From the NCBI GenBank assembly GCA_964443365.1, contig CAYUCM010000002.1, positions 1 through 33,265 on the forward strand: a stretch of DNA of 33,265 nucleotides, given 5' to 3'. This document shows, piece by piece, positions 2,429 through 33,040 of the stretch. This DNA is from an uncultured Candidatus Saccharibacteria bacterium. Its GTDB lineage: Bacteria > Patescibacteriota > Minisyncoccia > Phycocordibacterales > CAIZLB01. The notes under the pieces are model-generated. The model was not told the DNA's origin. It made no database searches and was given only the letters and a program-made list of their open reading frames with translations. How positions within the stretch are numbered: position 1 is the stretch's first letter; every line of letters begins with the position of its first letter. A program made the position numbers and the translations under genes.

Positions 2429-3622
2429 TTAGGCTACGATCTTTGTTACAACTCCGGCACCAACAGTTCTTCCACCTTCACGAATAGCTAGTCTTTGCTT
2501 TTCTTCAAGAGCAATAGGAGCTACAAGCTTAACTTTGAAAGTAACTGTGTCACCAGGCATAACCATGTCTACGCCTTCCTTTAGAGTAACCTCTCCTGTT
2601 ACGTCAGTTGTACGTACGTAGAACTGTGGTTTGTAACCTGAGAAGAATGGAGTGTGTCGACCGCCTTCTTCCTTCTTAAGGATATACACTTCAGCCTCAA
2701 ATTCTGTATGAGGAGTAATTGATCCTGGCTTTGAGATAACTTGTCCTCTCATAAGATCATCTTTCTTTACAGATCTTAGAAGAATACCAGCGTTGTCTCC
2801 TGCCATACCTTCTGTTAGTTGCTTATTGAACATTTCAATTCCTGTAACAACAGTCTTTTGAGTGTCCTTAAGACCAACGATTTCAATTTCCTCACCAATC
2901 TTAACTACACCCTTTTCAATCTTTCCTGTAACTACTGTTCCTCTTCCTTCAATTGAGAAGATATCTTCAATAGGCATCAAGAATGGCTTTTCAACCTCTC
3001 TTACAGGTTGTGGAATGTAAGTATCTAGAGCGTCTGCAAGTTCTAGGATTTTCTTTGACCACTCATCATTGTTATCTGCAGATTCAAGAGCCTTAAGAGC
3101 TGAACCTCTAATAACTGGAGCGTTTTCGTCAAATCCATTCTTTGCTAGAAGCTCTCTGATTTCTGCTTCAACAAGGTCTAGCATATCTGCATCCTCAACC
3201 ATATCACACTTGTTCATGAATACGATTATCTTTGGAACACCAACTTGCTTTGCAAGAAGAACGTGCTCACGTGTTTGTGGCATTGGTCCGTCTGTTGCAG
3301 CAACTACTAGGATAGCGCCGTCCATTTGAGCAGCACCAGTAATCATGTTTTTAATGTAATCAGCGTGACCTGGAGCGTCAATGTGTGCATAGTGACGAGC
3401 GTTTGTAGCATACTCACTGTGTGAAAGTGAAATTGTAATACCACGAGCCTTTTCTTCAGGTGCCTTGTCAATTTCTCCAACACCCTTAACTGTAGCTTGC
3501 ATACCTCCTCTATGTAGAACATTAAGGATTGCAGCTGTTAAAGTTGTCTTTCCGTGGTCAACGTGACCAATTGTTCCCACGTTTACGTGTGGTTTTGAAC
3601 GATCGAAATTTCCGGTTGCCAT
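2429..3622 (-). CDS. tuf: Elongation factor Tu
   Basis: 397 aa with [18 protein letters not shown] and NKCD G-motifs. Full length. Confidence 0.98.
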
Positions 3623-3876
3623 AATATTTGTTGATAATTATAGAATTGCGTGTTGTAGTTTATGGATATCGCCATAAAACACCCAATTTTTCTAATTAAT
3701 AAAATTAATTTTAATAAATTTCTCAAATTTCGTCTCTAGTGCTTCCCTTTGTATATAGCTTTATTATGTTTTTATCCTTAATATTGGCCTTAAATCAAAA
3801 GGAAGGTGCGAGAAGAAAACCGCCAAAAGGCGTTAACTGGATAATATCAGAAGGTGGGGGTTTGTCAATAAGAATT

Positions 3877-3904
3877 CAACCTCCAGCTGGGTAGCTGGAG
3901 GTTG
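3877..3904 (-). terminator. Perfect 12-bp stem / 4-nt loop hairpin directly after the 97-aa ORF
   Basis: caacctccagct-gggt-agctggaggttg, checked base by base. On the minus strand it is followed by aattcttattg. It lies 34 nt downstream of the TAG at 3938-3940. Confidence 0.55.
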
Positions 3905-3937
3905 TGAATTGTGGGATCGTGGATGTAATGGGCCATA

Positions 3938-4231
3938 CTAATCCCAGTGGTCAGATCCTCCGATTCCATTCTTGGCCAAGAGAACCTTCTTGACCATATA
4001 CAGAATCGCAACGATGGTGACGGCGCAGCCCATAGCCCCCAGAAAAAACCAAAGGGGTGTCTTGTTGGAAAAACCTTCCGTCTTCTCGTAAAACGAGCCC
4101 CACAACCTCCAACAAGAAGCTGCGATGACCGCCATGCCGTAGACCGCAAGACTCACCAGGAGGCACCAAGGTGACGAGCAAAGATTGTCTTTTCCCACGG
4201 GTTTGTTGAACCACTTTCTGAATGTTTTCAT
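3938..4231 (-). CDS. Small (97 aa) two-TM membrane protein of unknown function, encoded in a G+C-rich foreign cassette
   Basis: ATG at 4231 and TAG at 3940-3938. The N-terminus is basic (MKTFRKWFNKPVGK). There are two ~20-residue hydrophobic segments (WCLLVSLAVYGMAVIAASCW and LWFFLGAMGCAVTIVAILYMV), and the C-tail is basic then acidic. It is the only one of the four overlapping open frames that reads like a protein. Third codon positions are G/C-rich, unlike every neighbour. Confidence 0.55.
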   Translation of the reverse strand: MKTFRKWFNKPVGKDNLCSSPWCLLVSLAVYGMAVIAASCWRLWGSFYEKTEGFSNKTPLWFFLGAMGCAVTIVAILYMVKKVLLAKNGIGGSDHWD

Positions 4232-4309
4232 TGTAAAAATGAGGCCTTTCTGTCCTCAGGTTTATTGATTGATGTCCCGACACCTTTTTGTGACGGGAGA
4301 TCTGTCAAT

Positions 4310-4337
4310 ACTTTAATCTTTTTTATTCAGGTGTCAA
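4310..4337 (-). promoter_or_regulatory. Candidate sigma70-type promoter for the 97-aa gene
   Basis: The minus strand reads TTGACA (4337-4332), a 16-nt spacer, then TAAAGT (4315-4310). This is about 80 nt upstream of the ATG at 4231. Confidence 0.4.
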
Positions 4338-4363
4338 CAAAATATGGCACGACGCAAACAAAA

Positions 4364-4383
4364 ACACCCCACTTATGGAGTGT
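4364..4383 (-). terminator. Intrinsic terminator-like hairpin (second of two downstream of the fusA fragment)
   Basis: The minus strand reads ACACTCCA-TAAG-TGGGGTGT followed by TTTTTGTTTG. This is an 8-bp stem including one G-U pair. Confidence 0.5.
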
Positions 4384-4450
4384 TTTTGTTTTGATATTAT
4401 CTTTAAGCTATCATCTATTTGATTATAACAAATTTACTAACTATACAAAA

Positions 4451-4470
4451 ACACCCCATTTCTGGGATGT
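4451..4470 (-). terminator. Intrinsic terminator-like hairpin downstream of the fusA fragment
   Basis: The minus strand reads ACATCCCA-GAAA-TGGGGTGT followed by TTTTTGTATAG. It lies 36 nt after the stop codon of repeat copy A. Confidence 0.55.
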
Positions 4471-4505
4471 CTTTGCCAAAACTTTTTTGTTTTGCCTTGC
4501 TTGTA

Positions 4506-4706
4506 TTATTTCCTACTCTCCACAATTGTCTTCTCCACATTAGCTGGAACTGTATCGTAGTGATCAAATTCCATACTAACTGAACCTCTTCCTTGTGTCA
4601 TTGATCTGATGTCTGTTGTGTAACCAAACATTTCAGACAATGGAACCATGGCTCTAATAACTTTGATTCCACCTGCTCTATCGTCCATTCCTTCAATTTG
4701 TCCTCT
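4506..4706 (-). pseudogene. fusA: Orphan duplicate of the last 66 codons plus stop of fusA (EF-G domain V C-terminus)
   Basis: 100% identical over 201 nt to 8505-8705. It retains an in-frame ATG (4688) that gives the 60-aa peptide [10 protein letters not shown]...TIVESRK, identical to the EF-G C-terminus. No upstream fusA sequence is present. Confidence 0.85.
4506..4706. repeat. Direct repeat copy A (201 bp, perfect)
   Basis: Hand alignment with 8505-8705 shows every position identical. The flanking bases differ on both sides (4505 vs 8504, 4707 vs 8706). Confidence 0.97.
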
Positions 4707-4730
4707 TGATATTTTTTTATACGATAAACA

Positions 4731-7700
4731 TTATTCATCAATCTCATCTATTTCCTTAGGTTGACTGGGGTTATAATTCTCAGCTCTTTCCCAATCAATT
4801 GGAATGACACCTCCTACTTCACCAGTTTCTTCATTAAATTCAATTATCGTATCTTTTATCCTCCATCTTTTATCAATACCAAGTGTTGTCCTGAATAATT
4901 TAGCCATTTCCCCATTCTTTTCAGCAACTACCATCAGAATTACTTTGATTTGTTCTTCACTAAATTTACCCAAATCTTTTAAGTATTTATCAAAATTTCT
5001 TCCAGAAACTCCTTCTATTTTTTTCATAAGCAAATAACTACCATCTAGTTCCTCCTTACCAGAGACAAACCCCACAGGTTCTGCTGTTGGTAATCCAGCC
5101 TTTTTGGCAGAAATAAGAATAGAAAACTCTTTTCGGGCTTCTTTTGATTTTCTAAGTTCAATCTTTTTTGCTACAATTTCTGTTCCATCTGTCATTTTAA
5201 ACAAAATAATTTCTTCATCAGGAAATTCTCCCGTACCCTTACTGCCTTTTAATAATTCTCCATATGTATTCAAAAAACTCCTTGGATCATTAATAAATTC
5301 TTGTGGTAATTTCCTTGCATATTCTTGTCGTATACGAATAGTATAATGCTCAGAATCTAAATTCATATTACCAGAAGGTTCATGATGCAACTTCTCCTTT
5401 AGCCAATAATGACGCGCAATCGCCTGCTTAATCATCATGTATTCAAATTGCTCCAAAGGAGAAGTCGGCTCAGCGATAGGGCGGATTTTTCCGGTTTCGG
5501 GATCTTTTATTAATCCCACAGCGGTATTATCTAATTTAGCATTATGCTCAATATATTCAACAATTTCTGATCTGGCATTTTTTGGTATTCCCTTAATGCG
5601 ACGACCTGTGGTCTTAGCCGACAGTAAACGAATTCTTTTTTCAATATCATCACTATCAAAATCCATTATTTTCATTATCTGTTCGGGAATTGTGCCGGTA
5701 TAGCCAGTATCATAAAATAAAGGGTCCATATCCGGAGTAATTCTTTCTTGTGCCAAAAATGCACGCTTAGTTTTATAATCTAAGTTATCGCGAAAATATC
5801 TTGGGTAAACCGTATATTGCGGATTAATTTCAACAACCTCCCCCATTTCTCTAAGTTTTTTTCTTCCTTCAAGTCCCATTTTTCTACGACGAGCAACATC
5901 TTGTGCTCGTCTACCAATATATGCATAAATACCGTCTCTACCTAAATAAACTTCCAGTGGATTTCTGCCTGTCTCTCTTAAATTATCAAATTCTTCGTAA
6001 AGTTTATCATATAAAGGAATATCAACTTCGTAAGCTTTTATATATTTTTCGAATCCATAATGAAGAAGAGATTGTATGTCCTGCAACAAAACTTCACCTC
6101 TAGGGTAGTTGCCAGACCAATCTTTGTCATTTTCGTCAGTAACCACCTCTTCCTGCCTGTTCTTATTTCCAAGTTCATAGTTTAATTTATCTATATCTCC
6201 TTCATGTCTTTGTACTAAATAACGCGCAACCAAAGAACGAATGCTATCAATCAATGGGGTCATTTTAACCAAACCTGATTTTGGATTTAATAATACACTT
6301 TTATCTTCTTCATTAATTTTTGAATTTAGCTGAATATCCTTAAGAAAACCTTCGTAACATCCTTCTGTGATCCTTTTTACTTCCTCTAGAAACGGAAATA
6401 TCTCCTGGCTATTTATTCCCAAATTTTCCAGCTCTTTATCTTCTGGTTTTCCGCTCATTAATTCCGAAATCGCCAACGCTGTTTTAATTTGTTTATCTCC
6501 AAAACGCCAAGGGTGATCTTCAAATTGGTCAAAGTCTCTCAGTCCTTCATTATGATATCCCCCTTCATATCCATCATCATTATTATCTTCATACTGTGGT
6601 GTAGCTGAAATTTTTGCCTTTACAAGAGCCTGTTCCACCCACGTCAGACCCTTCCATTTATCTTTGATTTTCTTCGTTGTCCAGCCATCATCTTCTTCCA
6701 CTTCAAGAATAAACTTTTTAGCTACTGAATAATGCGATATTGCCTTGTTAATATTTTCCGCTACCCATGGTTGTTGATAATATTTATCAAGATTTTCAAC
6801 AAAATAATCTGCCAAGTTTTGATCTTTTTCTAAATTATCAAAAATCATATTCCTAGCTTTATCAAAAACCAAAGGAAGTATTTTTTGTTTTTCTTCATCT
6901 CCAAGATATGGAATAAATCTTATCAGACTAGATTCGGTAATCTTGTTTACTTGCTCTCTATCAAAAGCTTGTACCAAATCTTCAGCCCCATCTATAAGGT
7001 TTTTAATTTTACCAATTATTTCAAAGTTTTTATTATTATATAAAGACTTAATCTCTGCTTTTAAAAGTTTATATGTAAAATCACGCAACTCTTTATTGGG
7101 TTCTATTATTTCGATCCCCTCCTTCATGTAACCCAATTCTTCATTAAGGTCCTCTTCTATAACACTCATTTCACCTTCTGAAACCCCTTTTATGTTAGGT
7201 AAATTATATTCTTTTTTTGTAATTTTTTTAATTTCTTTCGGAACCAATAAACCATCAAAAAAATGTTGTGTAAGATCTACACTATTAGGGTTGAGCGACC
7301 AGTCTGACAAAATTTGCTTAAGCCATTCTTGTTTAGATTCCATGGATTTAAACATGTCTATACCTTTTTTGGTTAAATCAAATTCTTCTTCTGAAAAATT
7401 ACTATCAATATTCCCCATGAGTAATCCCGGAGTTATACCTTTTTGCATAAACTTTTGCGCTTTGACGATAAATAACCTTTGATCTTCAATCGTCATTTTA
7501 TTAAATTCTCCAACAAAAAAATCCCAAGTCGTGCTTTTATCATATTTGATTGACTTTACCACTATAGAAAGTCCATCATTCAATCCTACCAAACTACCCT
7601 TAGATAATTCTTTCCATTTATTAAAAACATCATCAGGCTCATAAATTTTTTTGCCCTTATCGTCTTTTTTATCGGAGATTTTAATCTTTCCAAAAATATT

Positions 7701-8342
7701 ATCTAGCAGTTTGCAAAATGATTTTTCACCATACAGTGGCATAAACTCTGCTAATTTACCAAGCAATTCAAAAGTTGTTTCATCATAGTTTAAACCATTG
7801 TGAGCCCTAAACCATAAATCCATAAGAATATCCTTGGGGTTATCACCATTTTCTCCTTGAACTGCATTATTCTTTAGTATATTGATAAGTGAATCCATCG
7901 AGTTTTTCTCATTAGATCCCGTTCGAGATAAAGAATACAATGAATCAATAATCTGTTTAATTAAAGAATAGCTTAAATAACCATTAGGCTCTTTTGAAAC
8001 TTTTGCAACATCAATAATATTTTGAGCATATTTACGGAAATCTTTTGGACTATTTATATTAAAATACCAAAATCTTTTTTCAATCTCCTCAAAAATAATC
8101 TTCATTACCTGGGAATTATCCGAGTCAAAACCTTCTCCAAGTTGTTCACGAACTTGGTCACACATAGCAGATATTTCCTCTCTAATTTTATCTTTGTCCA
8201 AGCTGTTCAACTTTTTAATCAAACCTCCATCTTCCTTAAGGTCATTTGGAACTCCTAATTCAGACAACTCAATTGGACTAATTTCTTTTTGTTTTCCTAC
8301 TAGACCATCTTTTTCAATTTCTAATTCAAATCTTTGTTTCAT
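4731..8342 (-). CDS. 1203-aa orphan protein: long Lys/Glu/Asp-rich N-terminal region, Arg-rich central module, C-terminal protein-kinase-like domain
   Basis: Uninterrupted 3,612-nt ORF with an ATG start, a TAA stop and host-like AT-rich composition. Only short, clearly spurious antisense ORFs overlap it. The C-terminal ~170 aa carry kinase-fold motifs in the correct order: GSKGTGEF, IVAKKI, KEARKEF, LLMKKIEG, RIKDTIIEFN, IDWE. I recognise no NTPase, nuclease or recombinase motif. Confidence 0.85.
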   Translation of the reverse strand: MKQRFELEIEKDGLVGKQKEISPIELSELGVPNDLKEDGGLIKKLNSLDKDKIREEISAMCDQVREQLGEGFDSDNSQVMKIIFEEIEKRFWYFNINSPKDFRKYAQNIIDVAKVSKEPNGYLSYSLIKQIIDSLYSLSRTGSNEKNSMDSLINILKNNAVQGENGDNPKDILMDLWFRAHNGLNYDETTFELLGKLAEFMPLYGEKSFCKLLDNIFGKIKISDKKDDKGKKIYEPDDVFNKWKELSKGSLVGLNDGLSIVVKSIKYDKSTTWDFFVGEFNKMTIEDQRLFIVKAQKFMQKGITPGLLMGNIDSNFSEEEFDLTKKGIDMFKSMESKQEWLKQILSDWSLNPNSVDLTQHFFDGLLVPKEIKKITKKEYNLPNIKGVSEGEMSVIEEDLNEELGYMKEGIEIIEPNKELRDFTYKLLKAEIKSLYNNKNFEIIGKIKNLIDGAEDLVQAFDREQVNKITESSLIRFIPYLGDEEKQKILPLVFDKARNMIFDNLEKDQNLADYFVENLDKYYQQPWVAENINKAISHYSVAKKFILEVEEDDGWTTKKIKDKWKGLTWVEQALVKAKISATPQYEDNNDDGYEGGYHNEGLRDFDQFEDHPWRFGDKQIKTALAISELMSGKPEDKELENLGINSQEIFPFLEEVKRITEGCYEGFLKDIQLNSKINEEDKSVLLNPKSGLVKMTPLIDSIRSLVARYLVQRHEGDIDKLNYELGNKNRQEEVVTDENDKDWSGNYPRGEVLLQDIQSLLHYGFEKYIKAYEVDIPLYDKLYEEFDNLRETGRNPLEVYLGRDGIYAYIGRRAQDVARRRKMGLEGRKKLREMGEVVEINPQYTVYPRYFRDNLDYKTKRAFLAQERITPDMDPLFYDTGYTGTIPEQIMKIMDFDSDDIEKRIRLLSAKTTGRRIKGIPKNARSEIVEYIEHNAKLDNTAVGLIKDPETGKIRPIAEPTSPLEQFEYMMIKQAIARHYWLKEKLHHEPSGNMNLDSEHYTIRIRQEYARKLPQEFINDPRSFLNTYGELLKGSKGTGEFPDEEIILFKMTDGTEIVAKKIELRKSKEARKEFSILISAKKAGLPTAEPVGFVSGKEELDGSYLLMKKIEGVSGRNFDKYLKDLGKFSEEQIKVILMVVAEKNGEMAKLFRTTLGIDKRWRIKDTIIEFNEETGEVGGVIPIDWERAENYNPSQPKEIDEIDE

Positions 8343-8368
8343 AAATTTTATTTTACAAATATTATTTT

Positions 8369-8377
8369 ATTATAGCA
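8369..8377 (-). promoter_or_regulatory. Extended -10 element (TGCTATAAT) upstream of the 1203-aa ORF
   Basis: The minus strand reads TGcTATAAT, 26 nt upstream of the ATG at 8342 and downstream of the fusA terminator. The -35 is weak (GGTACA). Confidence 0.4.
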
Positions 8378-8407
8378 CACAACGCTAGGTTGTACCCTAA
8401 TTTACAT

Positions 8408-8443
8408 AAAAAACACAAAAACACCCCTCTCGGGGTGCTTTTG
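8408..8443 (-). terminator. Rho-independent terminator of fusA
   Basis: The minus strand reads CACCCC-GAGA-GGGGTG followed by TTTTTGTGTTTTTT. It lies 68 nt after the fusA stop. Confidence 0.75.
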
Positions 8444-8504
8444 TCAGAATGTATTGCACGTTTTTAGAGAAGTGTCTTGAATACGGCTCTGTTGCTATCT
8501 TTAT

Positions 8505-8705
8505 TTATTTCCTACTCTCCACAATTGTCTTCTCCACATTAGCTGGAACTGTATCGTAGTGATCAAATTCCATACTAACTGAACCTCTTCCTTGTGTCAT
8601 TGATCTGATGTCTGTTGTGTAACCAAACATTTCAGACAATGGAACCATGGCTCTAATAACTTTGATTCCACCTGCTCTATCGTCCATTCCTTCAATTTGT
8701 CCTCT
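8505..8705. repeat. Direct repeat copy B (201 bp, perfect), which is the genuine 3' end of fusA
   Basis: Identical to 4506-4706. It begins exactly at the fusA stop codon. Confidence 0.97.
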
Positions 8706-10658
8706 CTTTGACGAAAGTGAACCTGTAACGTCACCCATGAATTGTTCTGGTGTTAACGCTTCAACTTTCATAATAGGCTCAAGAATAACAGGTCTAGCTT
8801 TTCTAGCTGCCTCTTGAAACGCTTGAGAAGCTGCAATTTTGTAAGCAATTTCTGATGAGTCCACATCGTGATATGATCCAAAAGTAAGTTCACAAGATAC
8901 ATTTGTTAGAGGGAAACCAGCAACAATACCTCTTTCCATTGCTTCCTTAACTCCCTTTTCAACTGCTGGGATAAATTCTGCTGGGATAACTCCTCCTTTA
9001 ATAGAATCGATAAATTCAAATCCTTCAGTTCTATGAACGTTCTTAGGAATTTTAGCACCCTCTTCTAGTGGTTCTAGATGCTTAATATTAATCTTAACGT
9101 GACCATATTGTCCCTTACCTCCAGATTGCTTAACATATTTATGCTCTGCTTCTGAAGACCCAAGAATGGTTTCTCTGTATGCGACTTGAGGAGCTCCAAC
9201 ATTAGCCTCGACACTAAACTCTCTTTTCATTCTATCAACCATAATTTCAAGGTGAAGTTCACCCATACCTGAAATAACAGTATCTCCAGTTTCTTGATTT
9301 GAAGAAATTCTAAATGTTGGGTCTTCATCACTCAATTTTTTAAGAGCAACACCCATCTTTTCTTGATCAGCCTTTGTCTTTGGCTCAATTCTTAGAGACA
9401 CAACAGGCTCTGCGAATTTAATAGGATCAAGAATGATTGGATGAGTTTCATCACAGAAAGTATGTGAAGTCTTTGCCTCCTTAAGACCAACAGCGGCAGC
9501 AATTTCTCCAGCATAAACTTTCTTAACTTCTTCACGCTTATTAGCTTGAAGTCTAACAATACGTCCAAGTCTTTCTTTATTTCCTGTTGACGAGTTATAA
9601 ATATATGAACCCGCTTCAATTGTTCCTGAATAAACACGGAAGAAAGTAAGTTGTCCTACGAATGGGTCAGTTTGCAATTTGAATGCAAGAGCTGAAAATG
9701 GTTCTTCATCTGAAGCATGTCTTTCAATTTCTGCTCCTGTTTCTGGATCAATTCCCTTCATTGGAGGAACATCAAGAGGACATGGTAGATAATCAACAAC
9801 AGCATCCAATACTAATTGAACACCCTTGTTCTTTAGAGCTGAACCTGTGAACACTGGGAAAACTTTGTTTGCAATAACTCCCTTTCTTAGAGACGCTTTA
9901 AGCTCGTCAATTGTAAATTCTGCAGACTCGCCATTTTCCAAATATCTGTTCATTAATTCTTCATCAAACTCTACACACTTTTCAACAAGCTCTTGTCTTC
10001 TTAATTTTGCTTCATCAAGCATGTCAGCTGGAATTTCATATTCAACAACTGTACTTCCCATATCTCCTTCAAATTTATAAGCTTTCATCTTTAAAAGATC
10101 TACCATTCCTTCCAAATCTGATTCAAGACCAATTGGAAGTTGCATTCTTATTGCATTCTTATTTAGTCTATCCAAAATTGATTGATATGATCTTTCAAAT
10201 GATGCTCCCATTCTATCCAATTTGTTAATGAAACAAATACGAGGAACATGATATTTATCAGCCTGTCTCCAAACTGTTTCAGATTGAGCCTCAACTCCGG
10301 CAACACCATCAAATACTACAACTCCACCGTCCAAAACTTTAAGAGATCTTTCAACCTCAACTGTAAAGTCTACGTGACCTGGTGTGTCGATAATATTAAA
10401 TCTTTGCATTTGTGACTTATCTGTACCCATGTATGTTGGATTCCAGAAACAAGTAATAGCAGCTGCGGTAATTGTAATACCACGCTCTTTTTCTTGTTCC
10501 ATCCAGTCAGTTACAGCCTCACCTTCATGAACCTCACCAATTTTGTGACTCATTCCTGTGTAATAAAGAACGCGTTCTGATGTTGTTGTTTTTCCCGCAT
10601 CAATGTGAGCGATGATACCAAAGTTACGAACTCGCTCTAATGGATAATCACGATTCAT
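8505..10658 (-). CDS. fusA: Elongation factor G
   Basis: 717 aa with [17 protein letters not shown] and NKLDR G-motifs. Full-length domains I-V. Confidence 0.98.
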
Positions 10659-10778: not shown

Positions 10779-11249
10779 TTACCAAGCAAAGTGAGCGAAG
10801 GCCTTGTTTGCCTCTGCCATCTTGTGTGTGTTTTCCTTCTTTCTTACTGCCTCTCCTTCATTCTTTGAAGCTGCAATAATTTCATCTGCTAGTTTTAAAT
10901 GAATAGCTTTTCCTTTCTTTGCACGAGCAGCATCAATAATCCAGTTCATAGATAGAAATGATCTTCTCTCAGCTCTAACTTCTCTTGGAACTTGGTAGTT
11001 TGCTCCTCCCACTCTTCTTGAACGAACTTCAACTTGAGGGGCAGCATTCTTAAGTGCGGTTTCAAAAATCTCTATTGGATTTTCTGTTGCCGCCATTTCC
11101 TTGATTGCATCAAAGGTCTTGTAAACTATTTTTGTTGCAGTTTCTTTCTTTCCACTCCACATTATGTAGTTGATGAATTTAGAAACCACATCAGACTTAT
11201 ATTTAATATCAGGTTTTATTACAACCTTCTTTTTTAATTTTCTTCGCAT
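10779..11249 (-). CDS. rpsG: 30S ribosomal protein S7
   Basis: 156 aa with S7 motifs ([30 protein letters not shown]-like C-terminus). str operon order. Confidence 0.96.
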
Positions 11250-11400: not shown

Positions 11401-11817
11401 TTATTTACCTGCCTTTGGGCGCTTAGCACCGTAAGCTGAACGTTGTTTTCTACGCTTATCAACACCTGCACAGTCTAACTTTCCTCTAACAACGGTATAT
11501 CTAATACCTACGTCCTTTACACGTCCACCTCTTAGAAGAACAACTGAGTGCTCTTGCAAGTTGTGACCCATGCCTGGGATATAAGCAGTAACTTCCATAC
11601 CATTTGTAAGACGAACTCTAGCAATCTTTCTGATAGCTGAGTTAGGCTTTTTAGGTGTCTTAGTTGTAACCTTTGTACATACTCCTCTTTTGAATGATGA
11701 ATCATAGAAAATAGGCTTATTCTTCAAAGTGTTAAAACCACGAGTAAGGGCAATAGCCTTACTCTTTTTGCGTGCTTTTGAACGATTCTTCTTAACTAAT
11801 TGATTTAAAGTTGGCAT
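11401..11817 (-). CDS. rpsL: 30S ribosomal protein S12
   Basis: 138 aa with MPTLNQL, [11 protein letters not shown] and RGGRVKD motifs. Confidence 0.96.
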
Positions 11818-32089: not shown

Positions 32090-33040
32090 ATGAACCCCAT
32101 ACAGGAAAAACTCCATATTATAAAGGCTAAATCAAGATTAAGCCAAGAAGATCTTGCAAGAGAGCTGGGTGTAACCCTCTCTGCTTTTAATGCTTGGTGG
32201 AATGGTAAATCAACCCCCAGAAATGGCGCCCTGCTTAAAATAGAGGATCTGTATGCTAAATATACAGGTTCTGGTAAGCCCAAAACATCAGAAATAGACA
32301 TTATTCTATCTCAAATAGATGATGCATATAGAAATTATGACAATATTCTTTCTCATATTTTAAACAGGCGAGATGTTTTGGAGAATTTGATTGTAAAACT
32401 CACCTATCACTCAGACGCAATTGAAGGTAGTACACTTACACAAGCGGAGACTAAGGCTATCATTTATGACAATAGCACCATTAAAAATAAGACTCTTATA
32501 GAGCAAATGGAGGCCAGAAATCACAAATCAGCCTTAATGTATTTATTCTCACATCTAGAATCAGGGGGTAAAATTAATGAAGAATTACTTAAAAAACTTC
32601 ATTCAATACTATTAAATGGAATTATGGATAATGCTGGGCAATATAGAAATCATCAAGTCAGAATAGCAGGAACAAACGTTGTAACAGCAAATTATATGAG
32701 TATTCCCAATCTGGTCAATAAATTGTTTTTAAACAGTGCGGCCCTCAAGGTAAACCCAGAAAGGAGTCCTGGCGAGGCCGAGAACATAATAGCCTTTGTT
32801 ACAAAATTTCACGCCAATTTTGAAAAAATCCACCCATTTTCAGACGGAAATGGTAGAGTTGGGAGGCTTTTAATTACAGCATTTCTGTTAAAAAACAATG
32901 TTGCACCAGCTATTATTGAAAAAGATTTAAAGCATTTGTATTACACATATCTAGAAAACGCCCAAGAGCATGAAAACTATGCTTTTTTAGAGCTTTTTAT
33001 TGCTGAGGCGATAATGAAGGGATATAAGGAGGTGAAATAG
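32090..33040 (+). CDS. Fic-domain protein with an N-terminal XRE-type HTH
   Basis: HPFSDGNGRVGRLL matches the canonical HxFx(D/E)GNGRxxR. The N-terminus LSQEDLARELGVTLSAFNAWWNGKSTP is an HTH. SDAIEG matches the [ST]xxxE[GN] inhibitory motif. Confidence 0.9.
   Translation: MNPIQEKLHIIKAKSRLSQEDLARELGVTLSAFNAWWNGKSTPRNGALLKIEDLYAKYTGSGKPKTSEIDIILSQIDDAYRNYDNILSHILNRRDVLENLIVKLTYHSDAIEGSTLTQAETKAIIYDNSTIKNKTLIEQMEARNHKSALMYLFSHLESGGKINEELLKKLHSILLNGIMDNAGQYRNHQVRIAGTNVVTANYMSIPNLVNKLFLNSAALKVNPERSPGEAENIIAFVTKFHANFEKIHPFSDGNGRVGRLLITAFLLKNNVAPAIIEKDLKHLYYTYLENAQEHENYAFLELFIAEAIMKGYKEVK

What the first reader, a model, noticed from the sequence alone, without database searches (positions are those of the whole stretch)
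3863..4310. About 440-bp G+C-rich foreign cassette encoding a 97-aa two-TM protein between tuf and the fusA fragment
**Seen in sequence**
- My hand count of 4021-4200 gives 99/180 = 55% G+C. The adjacent spacer 3661-3720 gives 11/60 = 18%, and host genes are roughly 32%.
- All three minus frames and one plus frame are open here. That is the expected effect of stop-codon depletion in G+C-rich DNA.
- Only 3938-4231 reads as a protein: basic N-terminus, two hydrophobic helices and a charged tail.
- It has a TTGACA-16-TAAAGT promoter upstream (4337-4310).
- A perfect 12-bp hairpin lies downstream (3877-3904).
- The G+C-rich block is bounded by an 8-bp direct repeat, TGTCAATA, at 3863-3870 and 4303-4310. 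This could be a target-site duplication or chance.

**Inference**
- It is a horizontally acquired mini-cassette from a much higher-G+C donor.
- Its size and topology resemble holin-like, pore-forming or abortive-infection membrane effectors, or small immunity proteins.
- It is the immediate neighbour of the kinase-like giant gene, so the two may form one functional unit.
Basis: partly seen in the sequence, partly recalled or inferred. Interest (0 to 1): 0.7.

Follow-up and report, generated by a model that had tools for sequence, protein, structure and literature searches.

The report
Foreign mini-insert with orphan membrane-protein gene
A 432-bp stretch of unusually G+C-rich DNA has been inserted just in front of the tuf promoter of a tiny Patescibacteria genome; it probably encodes a 97-residue two-helix membrane protein with no known relatives, and it sits at a site where related genomes carry other accessory genes.

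Summary
The block 3871-4302 is 49% G+C (55% at its core) in a 35% G+C contig, and it is the only such peak in 33 kb.

- **Not a chimera:** an independent assembly of the same species (L081) carries it base for base.
- **An insertion:** the nearest other species (L087) has a 302-bp fusA-tuf spacer without it. Homology resumes exactly at TATTGACA, the conserved -35 of the tuf promoter.
- **The 8-bp "repeat":** this is that -35 plus one extra copy. That fits a target duplication or a microhomology junction.
- **Not a structured RNA:** there is no Rfam hit. The ORF alone folds no better than shuffles (z -1.6).
- **ORF97 (3938-4231, minus strand):** it has two clean hydrophobic helices, positive-inside charges and GC3 of 0.64 (host 0.20-0.30). 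This combination was absent from 5000 shuffles and from 154 spurious control ORFs.
- **No homologue:** none was found among about 15 billion proteins, and a generic codon test was inconclusive.
- **Site:** relatives carry AbiE toxin-antitoxin genes, a Bro-N gene and ORFans at the same place, so it is a cargo hot spot.
- **1203-aa neighbour:** this is a separate, polymorphic insertion, not a partner.
- **Function:** untested.

The parts
3871..4302 (-). G+C-rich inserted block (432 bp, 49.1% G+C).
   Evidence: The block is absent from L087 and the other relatives. It is identical in L081.
3938..4231 (-). ORF97: a candidate 97-aa membrane protein with two transmembrane helices and both ends inside the cell. 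It starts at the first ATG after an in-frame stop and ends at TAG.
   Evidence: G+C by codon position is 0.43/0.44/0.64. No shuffle of 5000 and no control ORF of 154 shows both properties. AlphaFold gives a helical hairpin, H21-51 and H60-87, at pLDDT 65. No homologue was found.
3877..3904 (-). Perfect 12-bp, 4-nt-loop hairpin followed by AAUUCUUAUU. It is the likely terminator of the ORF97 transcript and insulates the tuf promoter.
4263..4310 (-). Imperfect 21-bp hairpin at the 5' edge of the block. It includes the distal TATTGACA copy. It is probably the 5' stem-loop of the transcript.
   Evidence: inverted repeat I2, 81% complementary.
4303..4310 (-). Distal copy of TATTGACA: either a target-site duplication or a microhomology junction.
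3863..3870 (-). Proximal copy of TATTGACA. It contains the conserved -35 hexamer of the tuf promoter.
   Evidence: It is conserved as T(A/G)TTGACA at the start of homology in L087, L088, L090 and L091. In L093 and L094 the shared TTGACA hexamer likewise marks the start of homology, but the two bases before it differ.
3841..3868 (-). tuf promoter, TTGACA-16-TATTAT with an upstream TG (11 of 12 matches). It is conserved in relatives.
4310..4337 (-). Promoter-like site P1, TTGACA-16-TAAAGT (10 of 12 matches). It lies in A+T-rich DNA, and its predicted transcription start falls at the edge of the block.
   Evidence: It is not conserved in L087.
4356..4391 (-). Terminator hairpin T2 downstream of the fusA 3' end. 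It is homologous to the single fusA terminator of L087.
4443..4475 (-). Terminator hairpin T1, a diverged copy of T2.
   Evidence: direct repeat D1, 84%.
4500..4706 (-). Context only: the fusA 3'-end copy, which is one arm of a direct repeat of about 203 bp. The other arm is 8499-8705.
4731..8342 (-). Context only, not part of the unit: a 1203-aa ORFan inside the repeat-bracketed 3.8-kb insertion. The insertion is absent from L081.
3623..3840 (-). Context only: the conserved tuf 5' leader. It has an ACGCC-loop-GGCG hairpin followed by a U-run just after the start.

Best explanation
**What it is**
The block is a recent insertion of foreign DNA of about 50% G+C into the fusA-tuf spacer of a Paceibacteria-type Patescibacterium with a 35% G+C contig. 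In this lineage that spacer is a hot spot for accessory cargo.

**How it is built (minus strand)**
- The insert is 432 bp plus a second copy of the 8-mer TATTGACA.
- It sits immediately upstream of the conserved tuf promoter, whose -35 hexamer lies within the proximal 8-mer copy.
- It forms one small transcription unit, in this order:
  - the host-type promoter P1 (4337-4310);
  - a 5' stem-loop;
  - a 97-codon ORF;
  - a strong 12-bp terminator, which ends 8 nt before the tuf -35.
- tuf therefore keeps its own promoter and leader.

**What it probably does**
The ORF most likely makes a small inner-membrane protein with two transmembrane helices and both ends in the cytoplasm. Its role is inferred only from its shape and location. 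I take it to be an accessory membrane-active protein of the kind carried by phages and defence or toxin islands, for example a small pore-former, toxin or immunity protein. It is not a housekeeping function.

**How it probably spreads**
Spread is more likely by homologous recombination in the flanking fusA and tuf genes than by mobility of the block itself.

**Shown versus inferred**
- Shown: the insertion, its foreign composition, its presence in two assemblies and the hot spot.
- Inferred: transcription, translation, topology and function.

**How sure**
The 0.55 is for the statement as a whole. By part, I put the insertion of foreign DNA at about 0.9, translation of ORF97 at about 0.6-0.65, and any specific membrane-active role at no more than about 0.25.
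For: **The G+C peak is unique and the counts are exact**
-.

**It is present in an independent assembly**
- L081 (GCA_020049755.1) matches the window at 99.75% over 2770 bp.
- It has no mismatch in the spacer or block. The 7 mismatches on the tuf side are all in tuf, and the 8 on the fusA side are all in fusA.

**There is an empty site in the sister species**
- L087 (EF-Tu 94% identical) has a 302-bp spacer: terminator, 16 nt, then TATTGACA.
- Its alignment with the window resumes exactly at 3870.
- The same boundary is seen in L088, L090, L091, L093 and L094.

**The site is a hot spot**
- Spacers range from 26 bp to 5 kb.
- Cargo there includes an AbiEii/AbiEi pair, a Bro-N gene and ORFans.

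**Signals that ORF97 is coding**
- GC3 is 0.64, against 0.20-0.30 in 17 host genes.
- In 5000 dinucleotide shuffles, none had an ORF of at least 90 aa with at least 2 TM segments, and none had a GC3 excess of at least 0.2.
- Among 154 spurious shadow ORFs from mid-G+C loci, 6 had at least 2 TM segments, 31 had the GC3 excess and none had both.
- AlphaFold predicts a helical hairpin.
- The sequence shows 5 K/R residues before TM1 and KK right after TM2.
- The ATG is the first start codon after an in-frame stop.
- The host uses no Shine-Dalgarno sequence (0 of 29 genes), so its absence here is not a problem.

**It is not a global RNA structure**
- The ORF alone folds at z -1.6. The whole block folds at z -4.5 because of its two terminal hairpins.
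- There is no Rfam or tRNA hit.
Against: - **No homologue of ORF97 anywhere.** I searched 5.8 billion clusters, 1.84 billion representatives with phmmer (one spurious TM hit), GTDB genomes, JGI metagenomes, IMG/VR, phages and plasmids, Pfam, NCBIfam, PADLOC and PHROGs, PDB and BFVD folds.
- **No gene was called in this frame.** ORF97 has no self-hit in the database, while the window's other proteins do. No gene was called in the block on L081 either.
- **The codon test is inconclusive.** A log-likelihood test trained on mid-G+C relatives puts ORF97 at the 9.5th percentile of true coding chunks. It cannot be separated from open off-frames or from its own antisense frame.
- **Selection cannot be tested.** The only two copies are identical.
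- **P1 is weak evidence.** It is a consensus match in a region where such matches are not enriched.
- **No mobility machinery.** The block has no terminal inverted repeats, and the contig has no integrase or transposase.
Confidence: 0.55

Rival explanations
1. The block is inert foreign DNA. On this view a fragment was captured by illegitimate recombination at the hot spot. ORF97 is then a relic or a chance reading frame that is not expressed, or expressed with no function.
For: - No homologue exists in any database.
- The codon test is inconclusive.
- No gene was called here by the pipeline.
- The two copies are identical, so there is no evidence of selection.
- The hot spot also collects other ORFans.
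Against: - A random fragment of 432 bp would rarely hold exactly one complete ORF. This one fills 68% of the block, starts at the first ATG and is followed by a 12-bp terminator.
- The two-TM pattern together with the GC3 excess was absent from 5000 shuffles and from 154 spurious ORFs.
Confidence: 0.25
2. The block is a structured non-coding RNA, either a small RNA or a cis-acting leader element upstream of tuf, and the ORF is incidental.
For: - It is a G+C-rich island in an A+T-rich genome.
- The minus strand folds at z -4.4 to -4.5, against -2.1 for the plus strand.
- There is no protein homologue.
Against: - No Rfam family matches, even at E-values up to 10.
- The fold signal comes from the two terminal hairpins. 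The central 294 nt fold at z -1.6, and 14 of 200 shuffles fold as well.
- Period-3 composition and protein-like hydropathy are unexpected for an RNA gene.
- Sister species lack the element but keep the same tuf promoter and leader.
- It terminates before the tuf promoter.
Confidence: 0.1
3. ORF97 and the adjacent 1203-aa gene form one two-gene functional system, for example a sensor or kinase plus a membrane effector.
For: - They are adjacent in the window.
- Both are ORFans.
- The hot spot carries defence-type cargo in a relative.
Against: - L081 carries the block without the 1203-aa gene.
- No fragment of that protein exists in any other sample holding the species.
- The two genes are separated by a fusA fragment and two terminators.
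- Their G+C differs sharply, 33% against 50%. The 1203-aa gene lies in its own repeat-bracketed insertion.
Confidence: 0.04
4. The block is an assembly chimera or a contaminating insert.
For: - Its composition is anomalous.
- It has no relatives.
Against: The identical block, with identical junctions, is found in a contig of a different strain from a different assembly. That strain differs at 15 sites in fusA and tuf.
Confidence: 0.01

Closest known systems
Horizontally acquired ORFan or accessory genes held in a hot spot between conserved core genes (a genomic islet)
   Same: - The block has atypical G+C and codon usage.
- It is present in one species and absent from its sister.
- It sits at a site where relatives carry different cargo (AbiE toxin-antitoxin, Bro-N, ORFans), flanked by the highly conserved fusA and tuf.
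- HGT into Patescibacteria is documented (PMC12455944).
   Different: - It is unusually small: one 97-codon ORF in 432 bp.
- It abuts the -35 of an essential gene's promoter.
- No donor or homologue is known.
Class II holins and pinholins, and other small phage membrane proteins
   Same: - Similar size (65-100 aa).
- Two TM helices.
- Predicted N-in/C-in topology, with basic residues at both ends.
   Different: - There is no endolysin, spanin or prophage context in the 33 kb.
- There is no hit to any holin family in Pfam or PHROGs, and no BFVD fold match.
- The C-terminal tail is short and only weakly charged.
Integron gene cassettes
   Same: - Cassette-sized and single-ORF.
- The ORF is an orphan.
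- A palindrome lies 3' of the ORF, and its distal arm ends in GTTGAAT, which fits GTTRRRY.
   Different: - The palindrome is about 38 nt, against 57-141 nt for attC.
- There is no matching RYYYAAC at the other arm.
- There is no IntI, attI or cassette array.
- The block edges do not fall at G|TT.
Type I toxin-antitoxin membrane toxins
   Same: - A small hydrophobic protein.
- A structured 5' UTR.
- It is located among mobile and defence-type cargo.
   Different: - It is 97 aa with two TM helices, whereas these toxins are usually under 60 aa with one.
- No antisense promoter was detected.
MITEs and other non-autonomous IS derivatives
   Same: - Small size.
- An 8-bp direct repeat at both edges.
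- Hairpins near both ends.
   Different: - No terminal inverted repeats.
- The two end hairpins are unrelated to each other.
- It is single-copy in the window and in all databases searched.
- It carries an ORF.

Membership tests
Class II holin / pinholin | A small protein with two transmembrane helices and both termini cytoplasmic. | tested here: met
   Kyte-Doolittle segments start at residues 17 and 58. AlphaFold helices span 21-51 and 60-87. There are 5 K/R residues before TM1 and KK after TM2 (from the sequence). Topology is predicted, not measured.
Class II holin / pinholin | Encoded in a lysis cassette next to an endolysin, within a phage or prophage. | tested here: not met
   No endolysin or phage gene was found among the ORFs of the 33-kb contig.
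Class II holin / pinholin | Sequence or fold match to a described holin family. | tested here: not met
   Pfam and PHROGs give nothing significant. The best hit is phrog_27713, of unknown function, at E 0.0075. BFVD Foldseek gives no match at E <= 0.001.
Integron gene cassette | An attC site: 57-141 nt with paired R''/L'' and L'/R' boxes (RYYYAAC ... GTTRRRY) and extrahelical bases. | tested here: not met
   The only 3' palindrome is about 38 nt (3873-3910). GTTGAAT fits R', but the opposite arm reads TTCACAAC and does not fit RYYYAAC (read).
Integron gene cassette | An integron integrase, attI or cassette array nearby. | tested here: not met
   There is no integrase among the contig's ORFs.
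IS-derived MITE | Terminal inverted repeats. | tested here: not met
   The ends, GATCTCCCGTCAC... and ...GGAGGTTGAATTCT, share 5 of 13 positions when inverted (read). No such pair appears.
IS-derived MITE | A target-site duplication flanking the element. | tested here: inconclusive
   The 8-bp TATTGACA lies at both edges. The sister species has one copy at the homologous place. However, the distal copy also pairs with sequence inside the block in a hairpin (I2), and the upstream flank is not alignable to L087. A microhomology junction is therefore equally possible.
IS-derived MITE | Multiple copies in the genome or in relatives. | tested here: not met
   There is no second copy in the window. 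There is none in 80 related loci or in the metagenome, genome and viral collections.
Type I toxin-antitoxin | A hydrophobic toxin of under about 60 aa with a single TM helix. | tested here: not met
   The ORF is 97 aa with two TM helices.
Type I toxin-antitoxin | An overlapping or adjacent antisense RNA with its own promoter. | tested here: inconclusive
   No plus-strand promoter-like site lies within 3863-4310. The scan covers only sigma-70 consensus sites.
Known structured RNA family (Rfam 15) | A covariance-model match at or near the gathering score. | tested here: not met
   There are no matches at the gathering threshold in the window. At E-values up to 10, the only hits are terminator-like hits outside the block and noise.
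Known anti-phage defence protein (PADLOC-DB) | An HMM match to a defence-system component. | tested here: not met
   No family matches ORF97 or the 1203-aa protein at E-values up to 1.

The most novel reading that the evidence does not exclude
The block could be a previously undescribed kind of tiny, hairpin-ended, non-autonomous cassette. It would insert at promoter -35 motifs (TATTGACA) with an 8-bp duplication. That would place its single membrane-protein gene under a host promoter while regenerating the promoter of the downstream essential gene. ORF97 would be a new membrane-active effector or immunity protein exchanged among Patescibacteria or with their hosts.
Probability: 0.07. Interest if true: 0.6.

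Novelty: new member of a known kind. Interest (0 to 1): 0.3.

Why it matters
- **If ORF97 is translated,** it adds a completely orphan small membrane protein to a lineage whose biology depends on contact with other cells. Small proteins like this are routinely missed by gene callers, and it was not called here.
- **The fusA-tuf spacer is the more useful result.** It is a recurrent landing site for accessory, toxin-antitoxin and phage-type cargo in Paceibacteria-type genomes. The variable segment ends precisely at the tuf -35. This makes the locus a handy place to mine for strain-specific genes in these genomes.
- **On its own,** a single unrelated ORFan of unknown function is an ordinary outcome of horizontal transfer.

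Tried and rejected
**Searches for homologues of ORF97: all negative**
- Exact-protein look-up: nothing on record.
- Word-indexed search of 5.8 billion clusters: no hit.
- Full phmmer against 1.84 billion representatives: one spurious TM hit.
- Back-translated pattern scans of GTDB genomes, JGI metagenomes and IMG/VR: no relative.
- blastn against phages and plasmids: no match.
- Pfam, NCBIfam, PADLOC, PHROGs, PDB and BFVD folds: nothing significant.

**Known RNA: rejected**
- Rfam and tRNA searches found nothing.

**Coding test: inconclusive**
- A codon log-likelihood test trained on mid-G+C relatives did not separate ORF97 from open off-frames.

**The 1203-aa neighbour could not be characterised**
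- There is no family or PDB hit, and only a self-hit in the protein database.
- A single-sequence AlphaFold model of its C-terminal 354 residues was useless (pLDDT 35). "Kinase-like" stays untested.

**Extra look-ups added little**
- The contigs for EF-Tu relatives P0008 and P0020 break just upstream of tuf.
- A literature search found no report of a fusA-tuf hot spot.

**Interpretations considered and rejected**
- Integron cassette, MITE or IS, type I toxin, holin in a lysis cassette, and assembly chimera. The reasons are in the membership table.
Full report
**Setting**

The window is a whole 33,265-bp contig, as the self-hits show. It comes from a Patescibacterium of the Paceibacteria type. 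Its EF-G is 83% identical to that of an uncultured MAG, and the next best hits are also Patescibacteria MAGs.

The minus strand carries these genes in order:
- rpsL (11401-11817) and rpsG (10779-11249);
- fusA (8505-10658);
- a 1203-aa ORF (4731-8342);
- a 60-codon fusA 3' fragment (4506-4688);
- the finding;
- tuf (2429-3622), rpsJ, rplC, rplD and rplW.

The rest of the contig is ordinary chromosome: ComEC, RecJ, PGK, TIM and type IV pilus genes. It has no integrase or transposase.

**Observation**

- 4021-4200 is 99/180 = 55% G+C and 3661-3720 is 11/60 = 18%. The contig is 35.1%.
- The 300-bp bin 3901-4200 (51.7%) is the single highest in the contig. The next highest is 43.7%.
- The 8-mer, the 12-bp hairpin and the TTGACA-16-TAAAGT site are at the stated coordinates.
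- The block proper, between the two 8-mers, is 3871-4302: 432 bp at 49.1% G+C.

**The block is real**

An exact-protein look-up with ribosomal protein S10 returned L081, a 3,968-bp contig of NCBI assembly GCA_020049755.1.
- L081 1199-3968 equals window 4706-1937 with 7 mismatches, all inside tuf.
- L081 1-1399 equals window 9903-8505 with 8 mismatches.
- Nothing differs in the 1,084 bp of spacer that includes the block.

A different strain in a different assembly therefore has the same block with the same junctions. This removes the chimera or contaminant explanation.

**The block is an insertion at a hot spot**

The closest other species I could recover is L087, with EF-Tu 94% identical. It has only 302 bp between fusA and tuf, laid out as follows:
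- the fusA stop;
- one terminator, homologous to the window's hairpin at 4356-4391;
- 16 nt;
- TATTGACA-N16-TGATATTAT;
- a leader of about 220 nt that is about 80% identical to the window's.

Homology with the window starts exactly at window 3870.
- Homology starts at the same -35 hexamer in every other relative checked. L088, L090 and L091 read T(A/G)TTGACA there. L093 and L094 share the TTGACA hexamer, but the bases before it differ.
- Upstream of that point, every genome is different.

Across 80 GTDB relatives the fusA-tuf spacer ranges from 26 bp to 5 kb. None of them contains DNA like the block. Cargo found at the same place includes:
- a 133-aa ORFan plus a palindromic element in L090;
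- a 192-aa ORFan, a Bro-N protein and a 100-aa ORFan in L088;
- an AbiEii/AbiEi type IV toxin-antitoxin pair in L093.

The spacer between the fusA terminator and the tuf -35 is thus a recurrent landing site for accessory genes.

**The 8-bp repeat**

The proximal copy (3863-3870) is not anonymous target DNA. It contains the conserved -35 hexamer of the tuf promoter. The distal copy (4303-4310) is the extra one.
- When the block and one copy are removed in silico, the result aligns with L087 through the terminator and the promoter. One further indel of about 27 nt remains, and it holds P1. This is what a target-site duplication predicts.
- The 8-mer occurs three times in the contig against 2.1 expected.
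- The distal copy base-pairs with block-internal sequence in a 21-bp hairpin (I2).
- The block has no terminal inverted repeats.

A junction formed at a patch of microhomology explains the same pattern. I cannot separate the two.

**RNA or protein**

The evidence against a structured RNA is as follows.
- No Rfam family matches, either at gathering thresholds in the window or at E-values up to 10 in 3600-4760. No tRNA or tmRNA was found.
- The minus strand of the block folds better than shuffles (z -4.5). This comes from the 5' hairpin and the 12-bp terminator.
- The 294-nt ORF alone gives z -1.6, with 14 of 200 shuffles folding as well.

The evidence for coding is as follows.
- In the ORF97 frame, G+C by codon position is 0.43/0.44/0.64. 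Seventeen host genes have GC3 of 0.20-0.30.
- The translation has two hydrophobic stretches of about 21-25 residues. Five K/R residues precede the first stretch, a mixed-charge loop lies between them and KK follows the second.
- AlphaFold without an alignment gives a helical hairpin at modest confidence (pLDDT 65).
- In 5000 dinucleotide shuffles of the block, 8.4% had an ATG ORF of at least 90 aa. None of those ORFs had two TM segments, and none had the GC3 excess.
- I also used 154 spurious "shadow" ORFs of 80-130 aa inside real genes of mid-G+C relatives as a more realistic null. Six had two TM segments, 31 had the GC3 excess and none had both.
- The ATG is the first start after an in-frame stop.
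- The host uses no Shine-Dalgarno sequence (0 of 29 genes), so the lack of one here is expected.

The evidence against coding, or neutral, is as follows.
- No homologue was found anywhere.
- No gene was called in this frame in the window or in L081.
- A codon log-likelihood model trained on mid-G+C relatives places ORF97 at the 9.5th percentile of true coding chunks. It cannot be told apart from open off-frames or from its own antisense frame.

I put translation of ORF97 at about 60-65%.

**Anatomy of the unit (minus strand)**
- P1 is TTGACA-16-TAAAGT (4337-4310, 10 of 12 matches). It lies in A+T-rich DNA, and its predicted start falls at the block edge.
- A 5' stem-loop spans 4310-4263.
- ORF97 spans 4231-3938.
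- The terminator is CAACCUCCAGCU-ACCC-AGCUGGAGGUUG followed by AAUUCUUAUU (3904-3877).
- The tuf -35 follows 8 nt later.

The insert therefore neither removes nor reads into the tuf promoter. P1 is only a consensus match. Such matches are not enriched here (5 found, 4.1 expected), and P1 is not present in L087.

**Relation to the 1203-aa gene**

That gene is bracketed by a perfect direct repeat of about 203 bp of the fusA 3' end (8499-8705 = 4500-4706).
- L081 runs from fusA straight into the spacer without it.
- The 1203-aa protein has only its self-hit among 5.8 billion clusters. No fragment of it exists in the other samples that hold this species.
- It has host-like composition (33% G+C, GC3 0.25).
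- It is separated from ORF97 by the fusA fragment and two terminators.

The two genes are independent cargo, and a functional unit is not supported. "Kinase-like" could not be checked. There is no family or PDB hit, and the structure model was unusable.

**Function**

Nothing tests it. The shape (a small two-TM protein with both ends inside the cell) and the neighbourhood (a hot spot holding toxin-antitoxin, phage-type and ORFan genes) make an accessory membrane-active protein the most likely role. That could be a small toxin, pore-former or immunity-type protein, but I give any specific role no more than about 25%. Membership of the holin, type I toxin, integron-cassette and MITE families was examined feature by feature. 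In each case at least one defining feature was not met.

**Verdict**

The core of the interpretation, a horizontally acquired mini-insert with one small membrane-protein ORF, is supported. The target-site duplication is plausible but needs qualifying. The link to the giant gene is not supported. The finding is a new, unrelated example of a familiar thing: an ORFan in a variable islet. The most reusable result is the fusA-tuf hot spot itself.

Noticed in passing
window 4500-4706 and 8499-8705; insertion 4707-8498: A perfect direct repeat of about 203 bp of the fusA 3' end brackets a 3.8-kb segment. That segment holds a 1203-aa ORFan with no homologue and no family or PDB hit. The sequence right after the full-length fusA (8400-8505) closely matches the fusA-downstream terminator of relative L090. 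The L081 strain lacks the whole segment. This looks like a Campbell-type integration or excision through fusA homology.
   Followed up: partly
window 3623-3845 (minus); L087 6790-7000; L090 6757-7000; L093 7280-7522; L094 2721-2941: A 5' leader of about 220 nt upstream of tuf is conserved in seven genomes. It has an invariant ACGCC-loop-GGCG hairpin plus a U-run right after the predicted start, and further predicted helices. Four pairs show compensatory changes. There is no Rfam match. It may be an attenuator or regulatory leader for tuf.
   Followed up: partly
L093 4984-6359: An AbiEii/AbiEi type IV toxin-antitoxin pair sits in the fusA-tuf spacer of a relative. L088 carries a Bro-N protein there. 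The spacer therefore behaves as an accessory or defence hot spot.
   Followed up: yes
L090 6602-6752 (also L091 1-110): A long palindromic element lies just upstream of the tuf -35. Its outer arm (GAAGGTGGGGGTTTGT) is an inverted copy of the promoter spacer ACAAACCCCCACCTTC. It may be a small mobile or regulatory element.
   Followed up: no
L035, L040, L042, L044, L046, L052, L055, L056, L061, L076 (fusA-tuf spacers): Many more distant Patescibacteria encode a conserved acidic ORF of about 80-140 aa between fusA and tuf. Its N-terminal motif is ...KKTGDR..(I/V)FD.... It is absent from the window.
   Followed up: no
L088 6232-6534 and L090 6114-6515: Two relatives share a homologous acidic ORFan just upstream of the tuf promoter (MKTGLRDYDDMK...AELNAKMT...). 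It has no Pfam match.
   Followed up: no
window 1-33265 (all gene starts): None of 29 host genes has a Shine-Dalgarno-like motif upstream. The start codons are preceded by A/T-rich sequence, which suggests SD-independent initiation in this organism.
   Followed up: partly
window 32090-33040; L091 4640-5542: The window encodes a Fic/DOC protein with an HTH domain. A relative has a Fic gene inserted inside the S10 operon between rplB and rpsS. This is another example of accessory genes lodged within ribosomal-protein operons in this lineage.
   Followed up: no
window 3896-3906 vs 4101-4111: An 11-nt stretch inside ORF97 (UGGAGGUUGUG) is perfectly complementary to the 5' arm of the terminator hairpin. 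It could form an alternative pairing. It may be chance, with about 0.02 such matches expected.
   Followed up: no
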